From Flaccisagitta enflata (lineage: Eukaryota), in assembly GCA_965153355.1 (NCBI GenBank), contig OZ231126.1:16182001-16246000 (forward strand): a DNA stretch of 64,000 bases. The letters are read 5' to 3'. The notes below the pieces were generated by a model. It was not told where the DNA came from and did not search any database. It was given only the letters and a program-made list of their open reading frames with translations. This document shows, one piece after another, positions 22,112 through 58,400 of this stretch. Position numbers and translations under genes: made by a program. The first letter of the stretch is position 1. Every line of letters begins with the position of its first letter.

Positions 22112-22365
22112 CTCTAATGAAGCTCAACTGCACTAACTATGATATAGTTAATATAGTGAGAATCTACTGTACGTCGGACTATCATCAAATTCCTTCAGGA
22201 ATTCTTATTCTATTCAAAATCCTCTCCGGAAGGAATTGGCGCATGGTCGGCTTCTTCGCATTTCCTCTACTCTTTATCCCCCTCATCATTTCATTTTAAT
22301 TTTGCATTTTGTCTAACAAGAGAAAACCTGGTAAAAAGATATTTTGATTTTGTTCTAGTAGAATG

Positions 22366-23168
22366 AAGAGTCGCAAAAGCGTTAGATGGTCAGCGGTAAC
22401 CGAGGCCTGCTTAAGCAGATTGTAGTGGAAGTTGAAGGAGGGAGCAGGGCAGCAGCCTCAAAGGAGTCGATGCACAGCGCAATCTGTAGTGACATTAATG
22501 CCCTGGGGAATTCCCCCATTACGATTATTCATAAGTGAACCGGGCACAGTCTAAAAATATCAGAGTTTGATCCAAGGGAATTCCCCGGGGAATCCCCCGT
22601 TTAGACTAACTTATTTTCTTCATTTCCCAATTTTGATTAAAAAAAACTAAACTAAACGGGGCATATGCCCCGCTAAGTCCCCGTTTAGTCCCTGAATCAT
22701 TTTTTTCATTAACTTTTAACGGCGCATAAAACTAGGCATATCCAAACTCTAACCTTTTTTTACCGGAGACATCAAGGCTTTTGCCCGGGGCATTAATGTC
22801 ACCTTTTTGTACTACAGATTGCGCTGTGCGATGGCCTATATATTCTTTCACACATATAGGGAATTTTCTCCTCCTCTTTCTAGCAATTGAAATTTGGGTC
22901 CTTTGGCTGAGATTTGGGCCGGGAGGCTTGGATGTGGGCCTGGGGGCTTGGATTTGATTCGGGAGGCTGGGATTAATGTCATGAGGCTGGAATTGGAGCC
23001 TTGAGCCTGGGATTAGAGTCTTGAGGCTGGGATTAGGGTCTTGAGGCAGGGAATAGGGCCTTGAGGCTGGGATTTAAGCTTTGAGGCTGGTGTTTGGGCC
23101 TTAAGGCTGAGATTTGAGCCTCAAGGTTGGGATTTAGGCATTGAGGTTAAGATTTGAGGGGGGGGGGA
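22366..23168 (-). mobile_element. HINE-like family A (subtype 3), 5'-truncated, carrying a nested MITE
   Basis: Collinear with the adjacent copy 23178-23653; ~21-bp GAGGCTGGGATTTGGGCCTT core repeats. Confidence 0.75.
22473..22828. mobile_element. Transib/RAG-like MITE (CACAGCG termini, 5-bp TSD)
   Basis: Perfect 18-bp TIR CACAGCGCAATCTGTAGT; TSD CGATG at 22468-22472 and 22829-22833; the empty site GTCGATGACC is visible in the sister HINE at ~23277. Confidence 0.85.
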
Positions 23169-23177
23169 AGGAGAAGG

Positions 23178-23790
<613 letters not shown>

Positions 23791-28363: not shown

Positions 28364-29227
28364 TTTTTGGGCAGCGGCCCCGAAGGGGACGATGTCCTGT
28401 AGAACACAGGGGACTTTCGTTCGTTCGTTTGTTTGTTTGTTTGTTTATCCATCCCCCCCCTTCGGCCTGGCCTGAAATCTGCCCTCTCAGGCCTGAAATC
28501 TGACCTTTCAGGCCTGGAATCTGCCCTCTCAGGCCTTGAATCTGCCTTCTCAGGTCTGAAATCTACTCTCTCAGGCCTGAAATCTACCCTCTCAGGCCCA
28601 AAATCTACCCTCTCAGGCCTGAAATCTGTCCTCTCAGGCCTGAAATCTGCCCTCTCAGGCGAGAAATCTGACCTTTCAGGCGTGAAATCTGACCTTTCAG
28701 GCCTGAAATCTGCGCTCTGAGGCCTTGAATCTGCCTTCTCAGGTCTGAAATCTATCCTCTCAGGCCTGAAATCTACCCTCTCAGGCCTGAAATCTACCCT
28801 CTCAGGCCTGAAATCTGTCCTCTCAGGCCTGAAATCTGTCCTCTCAGGCCTGAAATCTGTCCTCTCAGGCCTGAAATCTGGCCTCTCAGGCCTGAAATCT
28901 ACCCTCTCAGGCCTGAAATCTGCCCTCTCAGGCCTGAAATCTGTCCTTTCAGGCCTGAAATCTGCCCTCTCAGGCCTGAAATCTGCCCTTTCAGAGTTTG
29001 AATCTGAATAGGCAGATTTCAGGCCTGAGAGGGCAGATTTCAGCACTGTGAGGGCCTGGGGGGGGGGAGATGGACAAACAACAAACAAACAAACAATATT
29101 CCTCTGTGTTCTACAGGACATCGTCCCCTTCGAGGCCGCTGCCCTGCTTCCTCTTACTACAATTCACAATCATGCAAAGCAGGGCAACGGGTATCGCTGA
29201 CCACATATTGCCCTTGGGCGACCTGTT
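28364..29227 (+). mobile_element. HINE-like family A with expanded 21-bp minisatellite
   Basis: Same termini; ~25 units of GGCCTGAAATCTGCCCTCTCA, flipping orientation near 29005. Confidence 0.85.
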
Positions 29228-30152: not shown

Positions 30153-30727
30153 CTTATCATGATTAGTGAGTCCTTAGTCGTTCCCAGTGATTCGGTGTTT
30201 CGAGCATCTGTTATGTCGATTATCAGTGACAATTCAGCCTCATGGTCGACTTTGCTCGATTCTCATCTTTTCTTCATCAAATGACCGAAGAAAACGTACA
30301 GGTTTTAATTATTATTATTACGTTTATTTTCGTCAACATAAATGCGACAATTCCATACATCAATCATAAAGTCAAGGCACTACAACTAATGTTTGTTCAG
30401 AAAACGGGAAAAAAAAACAGGGGAAAAAACGGGGGGAAAAAAATTAAAGGATTACCGGAGGGGGGAGGAGGCAGGCAATAAGGAAAAATCGACATCTGTT
30501 TCAATGAAGTGATAGAATACCGGTATTGTTCTTACTCTTATTCGCCTTCAGAGCTTTGGTTGCCAATAAATCACATTTTCTTTCCTTCTCTTTGACTACT
30601 ACTAATAAATTTCGTTATTCATTCATTCGACTGGATAGCTAGCGCGTTACTGTTTCTCTCGGAAACTCGCTTTATTTCAAATTAATATTCAATATAAGCA
30701 AAACATAACACACTTTTAAAAAAAATC

Positions 30728-33225
<2,498 letters not shown>

Positions 33226-33617: not shown

Positions 33618-33859
33618 CACCTTGATCTGGGGGCTGAGAAAAACCCGAGATGAATCTCAATAGCTTAAATTACATGAAAAGCATACTTCTAGTTGCCCTA
33701 GTGAGATGAAATTTTACATGAAGAAAGCGGATGGTTTTGCAGAGCTTCAGTTAAAATTTCATCTTACTGGGTTAACTAGAAGTATGCTTTTCATGTAAAT
33801 TAAGCTATTGAAACATGCTAGATTCATCGCGGGTTTTTCTCAGCCTCCAGATCAAGGTG
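33618..33859. mobile_element. Palindromic Transib/RAG-like MITE (CAC termini, 5-bp TSD, 12-RSS-like ends)
   Basis: TSD CATGA at 33613-33617 and 33860-33864; ~100-bp inverted arms; both ends read CACCTTG-N12-AGAAAAACC. Confidence 0.85.
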
Positions 33860-48674: not shown

Positions 48675-49497
48675 GTAAGTGGTGATTTATATCTATTATC
48701 TTTTCATCTTTACATCCCAATACCTTGATATCGTTTATCAAAAGAGGATGCATTAATTGGACATCTCTTGGCCTTGGCCTTTTTTTTTTCTTTTTGCCAT
48801 GAAATAATCATTTTTTCGGGAAGAAGTTATGATGCAATTTTTCCATAATCCCAAATTGTTACAATATTAGTATGGTTTAATGTAAATGTTATTTCTATCA
48901 ATAAATTGATTTAGATGAACATCAATGTATGAAGGTTCATTCATCTGTGAACTCAACTCTTGCTCTTTTTTTTCTCGATCTTAAATCCTAGAACGGTTGA
49001 ATTTCACTGCCTCATTTGTATAACGCAGTCATTCAAAATTACCGCTCACATAGAAAAACTCCATAAATTGGTTTCCCTATGAAAGTATATTCAATTAGAA
49101 TCAACAATAACGGTATGATGTATTCGTTGGTTTATATGTCTTAAAAAAAGACGGTATATCGCTTTCTTAGCATCGTATTTGATCGCGTCCTGTTCGTTTT
49201 TACTGTTTTGTGCGCTTTCCCGTGCACTCGGAGTTCGGAACAAACCCGGCCCGAGAGTGAGAATCGAATGTCATGTCTCCTCCTCCCCCTCCTGCCCGAT
49301 GATCAAGTTTTATTCTAAGCCCGGCGGCCGTTCGAACCCGCCATTCATTCCTCTGTGGTGATCGTTCATCGGGCCGCTATTCGTTCATCTATGTGTCTTT
49401 ATCCATTCATCAATCCCCAACGATTGGCGGTTCTCTCTCTTCGTCTATCCTCGTCGATCCTTCAGCTAAGTTACGTCTATCTTGTCTGTTTGAAGTG

Positions 49498-54032
<4,535 letters not shown>

Positions 54033-54278: not shown

Positions 54279-54288
54279 NNNNNNNNNN
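54279..54288. other. Assembly gap (10 N)
   Basis: Direct reading. Confidence 1.
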
Positions 54289-55462: not shown

Positions 55463-58400
55463 TTATGAGTCCAATTCCAGCCGCACGAGCTTCGTGCGGT
55501 CTTTCGTCACGATCTTTCCATCTTAGCGCTGGATGTGAGCTCCTCCGGACATGTGTGGCTGACGAACCACGCCATGACACGTCCTAAGCTCCACCAGACG
55601 AGGTAGTTACCACCATGACGACGACACCATGTCATCAACCTGCAAAGTCTCTCTCGGATCTCGACCATTTGCTTCGCGCATGAAGAAGTGACAAATATTC
55701 GACCCTCCATGATTTCCAAAATATATCCACACGCGATTGCCACGCCTCCGTGAATCTTCGCGGAGTCGGCGGCAGAATTGACGCCTTGTTGCACCAGATC
55801 CAGAGGGCATGGCCGGATGTTGATGGATTGAGGATATGATTCTGTGTAAGGGCCTCAGAGTCATTTGGATCATCGCTGAGCGCTGTTAGAGGGCGATTGA
55901 GAATTCCTTCAGCCGACGACGGCAGTGTTGAAGGCGTCGACGTGGAGGATGGCGCCAGTTGAGATGGAGGCAAGATGGCGCTTAAAGAGAGCGACGATTC
56001 TCTCCCACACCCCTCCATAGTGGGGTGTTCTCGGCGTGATAAAATCCCACCGAAGGCCGCGCCGCTGCAATTCGGGAGTTGACGAGCGGTTCCAAGCTTC
56101 CATTTCCTTCTTGAGGATGTTGTTACGCCGACTAGATTCGTTCCACAATCTGATGTGAAACGGCGGATTCCTGGGCGCCTTGCTGCAAAGCGGATGATTG
56201 CATTTACCATCGCATCGCTGACATGTTGAATTCCACATGGACGGCGCGTGACACGAAACAGGTGAACACTGCGATCCACACCTTGTGATCAGCACGCCCG
56301 TTCATTTTTACCATGAAATGCCCCATGACGTCCAATCCAGTCTCTGCAAAGACAGGCGCCGGATTGACGCGATTTGATGGAAGATTGGCCATTTGCTGAT
56401 TTGCGTTCTTTTTAAAGTTCTTCTGGCATCTAAAGCACGTGTTGATGACGCTCTTGACGGCCTGAAGACCTTTTGTAATCCACACAAATTGGCGTAATTG
56501 GCACAATGTAAGCTTTGCACCCGCGTGAAAATCATTATGATGATAATGGCGAATTAATGATTTCACATTCTCGTCTTTGGCGGCAGGATGAAGGGAAATT
56601 TAGCGTCGTGAGAGATGTCGGCATTCTCCAATCGACTGCCGACGCGAAGGATGCCGTAATTGTCGACGAAAGGGTTCAGCTTCCGCATCTCCTTGTTCTT
56701 TATGATAAAGTCACGACGGCTTTCTGGCTTGAAGACTTTTCCCAATTCCAATTGTTCGAAGACGTCAGAATAATGCTGCCGCTGCATTGACTTGACGAGC
56801 TGTTTGCGCGCCTCCTCCACGACGTCTTGCGTCACTTCCCGGTTTGGGAAGGAGATCTCTTGCTGCTCGTGTCTTCGCCCTTGGATACGCTCTCCACCTT
56901 TGACTGCGATGAGAACCATGCCGATGAATCCGCAATTTCTGCATCCATTTTCCCTAGTTGCTGCAAGAAGTATCGCGTCAGCCACTTGTTTCTCTTCACT
57001 CTCAGCCGCATACAGAGCGGCGACCTGTGCAGAAATAGGGCACGTCGCGATGTTCGTCTTTGGCCATTGATCTTCGGGAAGACGCAAAAATGCAGGGCCG
57101 TGATGGAATTGACGCCATTCCAACGTCTTCATGGGCCTGGATGCCTCTGCTGCAGTGGTCCGCCGGGTTGTTTGACGAGTCAACCCAGCGCCACTGCTGA
57201 GGACTGCACCCACTATGGACCTTGAGACGCATTGGCGACAATACAGGCCTGTTTTGCCGGGATTAAAATCATCTTCAGTGCAGATTCAGAATCAGACCAA
57301 AATCGACGACGAGATTGTCCGTTGATGGTCCTTCCGACTTGCCGCCGCTTTGAGCTGGCACTGCTTTTTTCTGCGGATACACCGAATACGGGAACGCTAA
57401 GTTGATGAGAATGCTTGGATTGAGGATGACGTGAGATTTGGAGGTATGAATGAAATGTGAACATCTCCATCTCGGTTGACTTGACGTCGATATGCAACTG
57501 CTCCATATCCGCCTTTTGGAGCTGCATCGCAAAATAACTCGATTGTGACTTCCGCAATGTCGCTATTGTCGACGCCGCCATTCCACCAGCGCTCAATTCG
57601 ATATTGTTGTAGAAGAGGCCAAGATGAAGAGAAGTGGATGAAAGATTCCCACGCTCTCTTCCAAGGCGTATCCCACTTCCACTTCCTCTGTGGACGACAG
57701 AGTTGAAGATGTCGTCTACCGATGTATGCGCTTGGGCTCCAAAAACCCAATGGATCGTAAAGTCTGGCTAGCATAGAGACCAATTGACGAGGTGTTTTTG
57801 CTCTAAGAGTTTTGAATTCTTCACATCAGCAGATGAAGATGAAGACGTCTTCCGTCGGAAGCCATGAGACGCCCAACACCTTCGTCGGCGCATCATCTTG
57901 CTTATCTGAAATAGGGATTGGCACATTTGGATCTCCATCCATCAATTGCCGCGCATTGCTCTCATTTCACAAGATCCATCCTGCCTTAGTTATCACACAT
58001 TGAATCACTCTTAGTTGCAGTAAGTCACGAATGAATCCCCACTCTACCCCCGCTGCCGACGTAAAAAACCATAGTGCACAAGATCGAGACGTTGTAGGGA
58101 TATTTGGGCCGGATTACTTCAGCATGCTTTCTGACGGTGAAAGACGTGACGAATGAGCTGGATTGGCTAATGAAGACATGTGATAAGAACAGATTCAAAA
58201 TGGCTTCAGAGAGTACTGTCTTTGGAACTAAAGAACTGAATGATCAGCGGCTGCCAGGATGGACGCTGATCTGTGGAAGAACGCCTTTATGTCACACATA
58301 AAGGCGATCTTCCACTGACGAAAACGCATGAGGATGTCCATTAAGCTATTCATCAAATTTGGACCTCCGACGAGCAAATCATTGAGTGAGATCCCGTCGG

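What the first reader, a model, noticed from the sequence alone, without database searches (positions are those of the whole stretch)
22468..22833. Second, unrelated RSS-like MITE with asymmetric ends
Seen: CACAGCG termini (6/7 heptamer match) and a 5-bp TSD CGATG validated by the empty site in the neighbouring HINE. The right end reads CACAGCG-11 nt-ACAAAAAGG (7/9 nonamer match). The left end lacks exactly the 10-nt ACAAAAAGGT block and then resumes the shared GACATTAATGCCC, so that inner motif lies one helical turn closer to the left terminus. Inference: either a copy-specific deletion or a built-in one-turn asymmetry reminiscent of 12/23 and ProtoRAG TIR asymmetry.
Basis: partly seen in the sequence, partly recalled or inferred. 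Interest (0 to 1): 0.72.

Follow-up and report, generated by a model that had tools for sequence, protein, structure and literature searches.

The report
Transib-type MITE with offset ends
A 356-bp non-coding jumping element of the Transib (RAG1-like) type sits inside a very abundant repeat of a marine animal genome, and its two ends differ by a 10-bp insert, a kind of end asymmetry already described for a few Transib families.

Summary
Window 22473-22828 is a 356-bp element. It has perfect 18-bp termini (CACAGCGCAATCTGTAGT), a shared inner block (GACATTAATGCCC) and 10 extra bases (ACAAAAAGGT) at the right end only. CGATG is duplicated at both flanks. The neighbouring paralogue at 23279-23283 carries one CGATG, and so do hundreds of contigs of the host repeat in four public runs.

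The element is multi-copy. Other copies stop aligning exactly at 22473 and 22828 and have unrelated flanks. It has no coding capacity, and no RAG1/Transib-like ORF lies in the window.

CAC...GTG termini plus a 5-bp duplication place it with Transib/RAG-like transposons. Three other copies keep the 10-bp block at the right end. Block-less left junctions are about as abundant as right ends, so a private deletion is unlikely. No set of full-length copies could be aligned, so this is not proven. A functional role for the offset is also not shown.

Kapitonov and Jurka (2005) already reported 12/23-like end asymmetry in Transib, including non-autonomous families. Verdict: a new member of a known kind, of modest interest.

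The parts
22468..22472 (.). Left copy of the 5-bp target-site duplication, CGATG
   Evidence: There is a single CGATG in the paralogous empty site and in the family consensus of the host repeat (loose ends at 22472 and 22841).
22473..22828 (+). The whole 356-bp non-autonomous element (MITE)
   Evidence: Inverted ends. Other copies stop aligning at 22473 and 22828 with unrelated flanks. No ORF longer than 41 aa lies wholly inside it. As single-stranded DNA it folds to -68.1 kcal/mol, z = -8.4, and 0 of 100 shuffles fold as well.
22473..22490 (+). Left terminal module: heptamer-like CACAGCG (22473-22479) plus 11 nt
   Evidence: 100% complementary to 22811-22828.
22491..22510 (+). Left inner module, GACATTAATGCCCTGGGGAA, directly abutting the terminal module
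   Evidence: (I2, 91% complementary to 22781-22802).
22781..22800 (-). Right inner module (read inward: GACATTAATGCCCCGGGCAA)
22801..22810 (-). The 10-nt block ACAAAAAGGT, present at the right end only. With the terminal module it reads heptamer, 11 nt, ACAAAAAGG.
   Evidence: It is retained in other copies: records 4, 8 and 24 have 0-2 gaps across it.
22811..22828 (-). Right terminal module, identical to the left one
22829..22833 (.). Right copy of the target-site duplication, CGATG
22752..22763 (-). Second, subterminal copy of the block-like motif on the right arm (ACCTTTTTTTAC, against ACCTTTTTGTAC at 22801-22812)
   Evidence: family D5, 92% identity. Its significance is unknown.
22357..22472 (+). 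Host repeat, the part left of the insertion
   Evidence: 83.6% identical to 23169-23283. Very high depth in the runs.
22834..22881 (+). Host repeat, the part right of the insertion
   Evidence: 22841-22881 is 87.8% identical to 23287-23325.
23279..23283 (+). Unoccupied target pentamer CGATG in the neighbouring copy of the host repeat (the empty site)

Best explanation
Window 22473-22828 is one copy of a multi-copy, non-coding cut-and-paste transposon (MITE) of the Transib/RAG-like type. It inserted into a CGATG pentamer of a very abundant host repeat and duplicated those 5 bp (shown).

By analogy with HzTransib and RAG (established knowledge, not tested here), a RAG1-like DDE transposase encoded elsewhere in the genome moves it. 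That enzyme recognises the ends, nicks at the flank/CAC border, forms hairpins on the flanking DNA and reinserts the element with a 5-bp stagger.

Both ends carry the same 18-bp terminal module and the same inner module of about 20 bp. The right end has 10 extra bp between them. The inner module therefore lies one helical turn further in. Counted as heptamer, spacer, ACATTAATG, the spacers are 12 nt on the left and 22 nt on the right.

The offset is most likely a trait of the family, inherited from its master copy. It probably arose as a 10-bp indel at a GT/GT microhomology, which the transposase tolerates. That the transposase requires it is possible but not shown.
For: - Anatomy and statistics of the ends.
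- The 5-bp duplication is proven by the neighbouring empty site, by in-window paralogues (4 of 5) and by the uninterrupted family form in 4 runs. That form is seen in 180 contigs at 22472 and 494 at 22841. Five contigs bridge 22472 to 22841 with only ACC or ACT in between.
- Multi-copy with exact boundaries. The interior depth is 10^4 to 10^5 summed word depth in X1 and X2. In X2, 35 contigs have unrelated sequence before 22473. Records end at 22473 or 22828 and run on into other flanks.
- No coding capacity.
- A second CAC-ended element with a 5-bp duplication lies in the same window, at 33618-33859. This kind of element has therefore been active in this genome.
- Transib is described as the only eukaryotic DNA-transposon superfamily with 5-bp duplications, with invariant CAC ends (PMC1131882, passages read). 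HzTransib duplications were invariably 5 bp (PMC4840297, passage).
- Family-level asymmetry, all. Records 4, 8 and 24 reach the right terminus from 22643, 22735 and 22695 with 0, 0 and 2 gaps. Depth over the block-less left junction is 140k/109k in X1, 140k/115k in X2 and 3.3k/3.0k in X3. Depth over the right end is 77k/125k, 134k/169k and 4.8k/3.1k. No insertion at 22490 and no deletion at 22801-22810 reaches 5% of depth. The joint 22497 to 22805, one contig each in X1, X2 and X3, links a block-less left end to a right end that carries at least part of the block.
- The GT microhomology at the indel is seen.
Against: - No transposase was found. None of the 272 stop-to-stop ORFs of 80 aa or more in the window hits a RAG1/Transib family. 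No genome is held. The superfamily assignment therefore rests on end and duplication features alone.
- The heptamer is CACAGCG, not the Transib consensus CACAATG.
- The nonamer likeness of the right end has a 2.8% background per end. The shared block ACATTAATG matches the RSS nonamer at only 5 of 9 positions and misses the critical position 5.
- Because the two arms are alike, a short contig from any block-bearing end maps to the right arm and one from any block-less end maps to the left arm. Depth alone therefore cannot show that each copy has one end of each type.
- The two listed contigs that tie the left junction to left-specific interior (records 12 and 21) carry 12 and 11 extra letters whose place the table does not give. 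I attribute them to a GGGAATTCCC duplication seen as a loose end at 22515 (17 contigs in X1, 4 in X3). That is an inference.
- In run X6 the left-end bins are about 4 times lower than the right-end bins (16 against 57-77).
- Depth is a sum of contig depths, not a copy number. The tables show only the best-supported rows: 31 variant positions, 20 joints and 492 loose ends were not shown.
Confidence: 0.55

Rival explanations
1. The offset is functional. The cognate RAG1-like transposase pairs one short and one long end (a 12/22 arrangement of the shared inner module, or a nonamer-like A-rich block needed at one end only), as RAG does with 12/23 RSSs.
For: - The offset is 10 bp, one helical turn. 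Counted to the shared ACATTAATG, the spacers are 12 and 22 nt.
- Both end types are abundant and the right block is kept in 3 of 3 bridging contigs.
- None of the 40 listed variant positions falls in 22473-22503 or 22776-22828, while 25 fall in 22504-22775.
- An independent metagenome contig, L001, shares the terminal 18-mer followed by an A-run, matching 24 of 25 positions of the right-type end.
- There is precedent. 12/23-like TIR pairs are reported in Transib5, Transib2_AG and TransibN1-3_AG (PMC1131882). A 10-bp length asymmetry is reported in PflRAGL-A TIRs (bioRxiv 10.1101/2023.08.20.553239, passages).
Against: - A MITE family descends from one master copy, so a shared indel needs no selection.
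- HzTransib TIRs show little nonamer similarity (PMC4840297). Invertebrate RAGL enzymes are proposed to rely on the terminal 15-17 bp and to be insensitive to asymmetry (PMC7204232).
- The arms differ by further indels deeper in.
- The other Transib-like MITE in the window has symmetric 12/12-type ends.
- Apparent conservation of the ends may partly reflect how short contigs anchor when aligned.
Confidence: 0.25
2. The missing 10 nt are a private deletion of this copy, or of a small subfamily. The family proper has the block at both ends.
For: - The GT/GT microhomology fits a simple deletion.
- L001 and all three right-end contigs show the block-bearing form.
- In X6, right-type ends have about 4 times the depth of left-type ends.
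- The gap positions in records 12 and 21 are unknown.
Against: - Block-less junction bins carry depth equal to or above the right-end bins in X1 to X3.
- In X2, 35 contigs start at 22473 on the left-type arm.
- No insertion at 22490 reaches 5% of depth.
- No loose end at 22491 is among the rows shown, even in X3 and X6, where rows with 2-4 contigs are shown.
- Record 21 starts at 22485, only 6 nt before the junction. A 10-nt gap is unlikely to have been opened there (all).
Confidence: 0.12
3. The element is not a Transib/RAG-like element. It belongs to another or an undescribed superfamily that also makes 5-bp duplications, and its CAC ends are a coincidence.
For: - No transposase is linked to it.
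- The heptamer deviates from the Transib consensus.
- It matches the protostome RAGL TIR consensus CACTWMCAAACKTYKBB (PMC7204232) at only 9 of 17 positions, by my own count on the sequence.
Against: - The combination of a 5-bp duplication with 5'-CAC ends is given as distinctive for Transib (PMC1131882) and is shared by RAGL (PMC7204232).
- hAT ends have G at position 3 (legend of Fig. S7 of PMC1131882).
- hAT elements make 8-bp duplications. CACTA elements have CACTA ends and 3-bp duplications. Solo LTRs end TG...CA. These three points are my own recall of standard classifications.
Confidence: 0.08

Closest known systems
TransibN1_AG, TransibN2_AG and TransibN3_AG (non-autonomous Transib families of Anopheles gambiae), with Transib5 and Transib2_AG; Kapitonov and Jurka 2005, PMC1131882
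   Same: These are non-autonomous elements with 5-bp target duplications and CAC-initiated ends. The 5' and 3' ends differ in the distance of an inner conserved block (RSS12-like against RSS23-like). I read the text of section 9 and the legend of Fig. 4C.
   Different: Their sequences are in figures and a PDF supplement that I could not see, so no base-by-base comparison was made. Here the shifted shared block (ACATTAATG) is a poor nonamer match (5/9), the A-rich block is itself the insert, and the host is a marine animal rather than an insect.
HzTransib of Helicoverpa zea (an active Transib transposase with its TIRs)
   Same: It makes 5-bp duplications invariably. Its heptamer-like CAC ends are essential. 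Cleavage is by a nick-hairpin reaction (PMC4840297, passages).
   Different: It is autonomous and encodes its transposase. Its TIRs are described as having little or no nonamer similarity. No transposase is known for the present family.
PflRAGL-A transposon TIRs of Ptychodera flava (bioRxiv 10.1101/2023.08.20.553239)
   Same: Heptamer-like ends, 5-bp duplications, and a spacer with a 10-bp length asymmetry before an AT-rich block (passages).
   Different: That element carries a RAG1L-RAG2L gene pair and an A-rich TR2 region next to the heptamer. Here the 11 nt after the heptamer (CAATCTGTAGT) are not A-rich, and no genes are linked.
Vertebrate 12/23 recombination signal sequences
   Same: CAC-initiated heptamer (6/7 match to CACAGTG), an A-rich nonamer-like block (7/9) 11 nt away at one end, and an offset of one helical turn between the two ends.
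   Different: This is a mobile, multi-copy element with target duplications, not a recombination signal beside a gene segment. The two ends share a conserved spacer, unlike RSS spacers.

Membership tests
Transib / RAG-like superfamily, non-autonomous element | 5-bp target-site duplication | tested here: met
   CGATG flanks both ends. There is one CGATG in the neighbouring empty site, in 4 of 5 further in-window paralogues and in the uninterrupted family form in 4 runs. The boundaries are fixed by other copies ending at 22473 and 22828.
Transib / RAG-like superfamily, non-autonomous element | Ends begin 5'-CAC (heptamer-like) on both arms | tested here: met
   CACAGCG at both ends; a 6/7 match to CACAGTG and 5/7 to the Transib consensus CACAATG.
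Transib / RAG-like superfamily, non-autonomous element | A second conserved, A-rich nonamer-like block 12 or 23 (+/-1) bp from the heptamer | tested here: inconclusive
   The right end has ACAAAAAGG (7/9) at 11 nt and the left end has none. The background for such a match is 48 of 1736 CAC sites. The shared block ACATTAATG lies at 12 and 22 nt but matches only 5/9.
Transib / RAG-like superfamily, non-autonomous element | Shares its ends with an autonomous element that encodes a RAG1-core-like DDE transposase | not testable with these tools
   No genome is held. There is no other copy of the ends in the window. None of the 272 ORFs of 80 aa or more hits a RAG1/Transib family.
MITE (generic definition) | Short, non-coding and multi-copy, with inverted ends and differing flanks | tested here: met
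   356 bp. The longest internal ORF is 41 aa. Many contigs in 4 runs have unrelated flanks at the termini.
Transib families with 12/23-like asymmetric ends (Kapitonov and Jurka 2005, Fig. 4C) | The inner conserved block lies about one helical turn further from the heptamer at one end | tested here: met
   There is a 10-nt gap in the alignment of the two arms of this copy.
Transib families with 12/23-like asymmetric ends (Kapitonov and Jurka 2005, Fig. 4C) | The asymmetry holds in the family consensus, not in one copy only | tested here: inconclusive
   The right block is kept in 3 of 3 bridging contigs. The block-less left junction is abundant. One contig per run in 3 runs joins a block-less left end to a right end carrying at least part of the block. 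No full-length copies could be aligned.
Protostome/deuterostome RAGL transposon TIRs | TIR consensus CACTWMCAAACKTYKBB with AAA at positions 8-10 (PMC7204232) | tested here: not met
   9 of 17 positions fit. Positions 8-10 read CAA. This is my own count on the sequence against the consensus quoted.
hAT, CACTA/EnSpm, solo LTR (considered and rejected) | 8-bp duplication with G as third base (hAT); 3-bp duplication with CACTA ends (CACTA); TG...CA ends (LTR) | tested here: not met
   The duplication is 5 bp and the third base is C. The ends are CACAG...CTGTG. The hAT third-base rule comes from the PMC1131882 Fig. S7 legend. The other rules are recalled.

The most novel reading that the evidence does not exclude
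A Transib (or RAG-like) family of a marine invertebrate has a transposase that really requires one short and one long end. The arrangement would be heptamer-12-ACATTAATG against heptamer-22-ACATTAATG, with the 10-bp insert itself being nonamer-like (ACAAAAAGG). This would be a natural 12/23-type pairing rule outside vertebrates and outside the few insect Transib families. It could be tested with a high-copy MITE as substrate. It would bear on the dispute over whether RSS asymmetry came from Transib or from RAGL ends.
Probability: 0.2. Interest if true: 0.6.

Novelty: new member of a known kind. Interest (0 to 1): 0.3.

Why it matters
Transib transposons are the accepted relatives of the RAG1 recombinase, and their ends are the accepted relatives of the V(D)J recombination signals. 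How and when the 12/23 asymmetry arose is still debated. Yakovenko 2021 (PMC8355894) argues for a Transib with asymmetric ends. Martin 2023 (bioRxiv 10.1101/2023.08.20.553239) argues for RAGL-A ends. I read passages of both.

A further family with a one-turn offset, from a marine animal rather than an insect, adds a data point. Because it is abundant, it is also a convenient natural substrate.

On present evidence it is only an ordinary Transib-type MITE with an inherited 10-bp indel between its arms. It does not change the picture unless its transposase is found and shown to need the offset.

Tried and rejected
- **Scans for the 18-mer terminus in collections.**
  - Metagenome contigs gave 4 loci. 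L002 to L004 do not continue like the element. L001 continues for 24 of 25 nt like the right-type end and then diverges, and its contig ends 423 nt further on. It is a lead only.
  - Viral contigs gave 0.
  - Prokaryotic genome contigs gave 7 matches. None has the inner block. All are taken as chance.
- **Protein-level look-up of ORFs that read into the element's left end.** A 21-aa query was under the tool's 40-aa minimum. The 42-aa ORF 22426-22551 found no candidate of 23-74 residues. The right-end peptide and longer proteins were not tried.
- **Earlier findings of this scan.** There is nothing on this genome or this sequence. The 23 notes that hold 'Transib' concern another organism and do not bear on this element.
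- **Rfam and tRNA scans of the window.** No hit.
- **Pfam scan for a transposase.** No RAG1/Transib hit. Genes with introns or heavy decay could be missed.
- **Literature search for the end sequences.** There was one unrelated hit for the 12-mer and none for the 13-mer.
- **Runs not laid.** Nothing is concluded from them.
- **A 3- or 4-bp duplication with G...C-extended ends.** Considered, then rejected because other copies end at 22473 and 22828.
- **hAT, CACTA or solo-LTR identity.** Considered, then rejected on duplication length and end sequence.
- **Figures and supplements not seen.** Figures 4C and S4 of PMC1131882 (the sequences of the asymmetric Transib ends) are not held as text. The additional files of PMC7204232 were not opened. 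Both could sharpen the comparison.

Full report
**1. What is in the sequence**

The element runs from 22473 to 22828 (356 bp).
- Its outer 18 nt, CACAGCGCAATCTGTAGT, are perfectly inverted (pair I3).
- With up to three mismatches the 18-mer occurs only at these two places in the 64-kb window. The chance expectation is 0.04, and 0 of 100 shuffles gave two or more matches.
- A second inverted block, GACATTAATGCCC, follows at both ends.
- On the right arm, ten bases, ACAAAAAGGT, separate this block from the terminal module. The left arm lacks them.
- The indel can be placed in three equivalent ways because GT stands on both sides of it. A simple deletion or duplication at a microhomology would look like this.
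- Similarity between the arms extends over about 38 nt on the left and 48 nt on the right, then decays with further indels.
- Read inward, the right end is CACAGCG, 11 nt, ACAAAAAGG.
- Counted to the shared ACATTAATG instead, the spacer is 12 nt on the left and 22 nt on the right.
- The element has no ORF over 41 aa of its own.
- As single-stranded DNA it folds into a long hairpin: -68.1 kcal/mol, z = -8.4.

**2. Target-site duplication**

CGATG flanks both ends. The element sits in a repeat whose next copy lies 700 bp downstream.
- That copy aligns to the left flank (22357-22472 with 23169-23283, 83.6%) and to the right flank (22841-22881 with 23287-23325, 87.8%).
- It reads GGGGTCGATGACCTATGC across the site, with a single CGATG.
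- Four of five more distant in-window paralogues also have one CGATG there.

I laid Logan contigs of four public runs on 22380-22920. Two runs were of a coded 'organism A' and two were marine metagenomes.
- This showed that the uninterrupted form is the norm for the host repeat.
- At 22472, 67, 79, 20 and 14 contigs continue with ACCTATGCTTTCACACAT.
- At 22841, 203, 203, 59 and 29 contigs are preceded by ...GGGGTCGATGACC.
- Five contigs bridge 22472 to 22841 with only ACC or ACT in between.

One subtlety remains. The bases just outside the termini, G and C, are also complementary, so this insertion alone would fit a 3- or 4-bp duplication with longer ends. Other copies decide the matter.
- In X2, 35 contigs stop aligning at 22473 and have unrelated sequence before it (agreement 0.41).
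- Listed records end at 22473 (record 12) and at 22828 (records 4 and 8). Record 24 ends at 22829, as a chance match would allow.
- The ends are therefore CAC...GTG and the duplication is 5 bp.

**3. It is a family**

- The window holds no second copy.
- In the runs, the interior of the element carries summed word depths of 10^4 to 10^5 in X1 and X2, and 10^2 to 10^3 in X3.
- There are internal-deletion variants, for example a joint from 22626 to 22749.
- Many variant positions were reported.
- Depth here is a sum over contigs and not a copy number.
- Whether 'organism A' is the source species is unknown. The best share of sampled words was 0.21.

**4. What kind of element**

- A scan of the window for CAC...GTG inverted ends with an exact 5-bp duplication finds this element and one other, at 33618-33859. 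Thirty shuffles gave one hit in total.
- Kapitonov and Jurka 2005 (PMC1131882) describe Transib as the only eukaryotic DNA-transposon superfamily with 5-bp duplications. They describe its ends as heptamer-like, with invariant CAC and an A-rich nonamer-like block. I read passages and section 9.
- HzTransib made 5-bp duplications invariably (PMC4840297).
- RAG-like transposons share both features (PMC7204232).
- The present ends fit the RAGL consensus poorly, at 9 of 17 positions by my count.
- I therefore file the element as a Transib/RAG-like MITE. The defining link to a transposase is untested. No genome is held, and none of the 272 ORFs of 80 aa or more in the window hits a RAG1/Transib family.
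- Other coding remnants in the window are BEL/Pao retrotransposon genes and C2H2 zinc fingers. An Atlas look-up of the 833-aa gag-like ORF points to animals, most often arthropods.

**5. Private deletion or family trait**

A caveat governs this question. Because the arms are alike, a short contig from any block-bearing end maps best to the right arm, and one from any block-less end maps best to the left arm. Only contigs that also reach arm-specific interior are decisive. With that in mind, one search gives the following.
- (a) Records 4, 8 and 24 reach the right terminus from 22643, 22735 and 22695 with 0, 0 and 2 gaps. The block is therefore kept next to right-specific interior in 3 of 3 listed cases.
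- (b) Bins over the block-less left junction have about the same depth as bins over the right end in X1, X2 and X3, but about four times less in X6.
- (c) No insertion at 22490 and no deletion at 22801-22810 reaches the 5% listing threshold.
- (d) No loose end at 22491 is among the rows shown, although X3 and X6 rows with 2-4 contigs are shown.
- (e) One contig in each of X1, X2 and X3 joins 22497 to 22805. This is a block-less left end joined to a right end that carries at least the terminus-proximal part of the block.
- (f) Records 12 and 21 tie the left junction to left-specific interior but carry 12 and 11 extra letters at unstated positions. A loose end at 22515 (17 contigs in X1, 4 in X3) reads like a duplicated GGGAATTCCC motif of that size. 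Record 21 begins only 6 nt before the junction. I therefore infer that the extra letters are not the block.

Together these make a private deletion unlikely (about 0.12). They do not show that every copy pairs one end of each type. Many table rows were not displayed: 31 variant positions, 20 joints and 492 loose ends.

**6. Function of the offset**

- For a role:
  - The offset is exactly one helical turn.
  - The insert is nonamer-like, and a similar motif recurs 49 nt further in on the right arm (D5).
  - None of the 40 listed variant positions lies in 22473-22503 or 22776-22828.
  - An unrelated eukaryote-like metagenome contig, L001, shares the 18-mer followed by an A-run (24 of 25 nt).
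- Against a role:
  - A MITE family inherits its master copy's indels without selection.
  - The nonamer match has a background of 2.8% per end.
  - The shared block is a poor nonamer.
  - The other Transib-like MITE in the window has symmetric 12/12-type ends.
  - Invertebrate RAG-like enzymes are thought to rely on the terminal 15-17 bp (PMC7204232).
- I put a required asymmetry at about 0.2 to 0.25.

**7. Comparison with what is known**

- End asymmetry of this kind is in print. Transib5, Transib2_AG and the non-autonomous TransibN1-3_AG have RSS12-like 5' ends and RSS23-like 3' ends (PMC1131882). Yakovenko 2021 takes this up (PMC8355894).
- PflRAGL-A ends have a 10-bp length asymmetry (bioRxiv 10.1101/2023.08.20.553239).
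- I could not see the figures or the PDF supplement with those sequences, so the comparison is at the level of architecture only.
- The end sequences of the present family were not found in the paper library (one unrelated hit).

**8. Verdict**

It is a new member of a known kind, of modest interest (0.3). The decisive test is an alignment of all genomic copies, together with identification of the autonomous partner.

Noticed in passing
window 33618-33859: A second CAC-ended MITE, 242 bp long, with the 5-bp duplication CATGA. Both ends read CACCTTG, 12 nt, AGAAAAACC (8/9 match to the RSS nonamer), which is a symmetric RSS12-like pair. The whole element is a 79% imperfect palindrome. No empty site and no other copy were found in the window.
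   Followed up: partly
window 22357-22472, 22834-23160 and 23169-23628: The host repeat is extraordinarily abundant. Summed word depth reaches 1.6 to 2.2 million in X1 and X2, and it is also high in two marine metagenomes. The second copy has a head of about 115 nt. After it come inverted 40-nt modules (23284-23325 against 23584-23628) that enclose arrays of GGGCCTTGAGGCTGGGATTT-like units (about 20-25 nt; period not measured). A related subfamily has 5 further heads in the window. Its class was not determined; there was no tRNA or Rfam hit.
   Followed up: partly
L001 801-825 (metagenome contig): An AT-rich, eukaryote-like contig carries the same 18-mer terminus followed by an A-run, matching 24 of 25 positions of the right-type end. 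It then diverges, and the contig ends 423 nt further on. It may be a sister family that shares the transposase recognition end.
   Followed up: partly
window 49303-51804 (+) and about 55600-57830 (-): Remnants of BEL/Pao LTR retrotransposons. The first is an 833-aa gag-like ORF with a weak DUF1759 hit. On the other strand there are Peptidase_A17 (E 5e-16), Integrase_H2C2 (E 1.5e-9) and DUF5641 pieces in different frames.
   Followed up: no
window 30698-31304 (+): ORFs with C2H2 zinc fingers (zf-H2C2_2, E 1e-16), possibly exons of a host gene or of a transposon.
   Followed up: no
window 28403-29008 (+): Two ORFs hit Pfam LbR_Ice_bind (E 3e-6 and 2e-9). They lie in a tandem-repeat-rich stretch next to host-repeat heads and may be repeat translations rather than a gene.
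   Followed up: no
window 54279-54288: A run of 10 N, which is an assembly gap.
   Followed up: no
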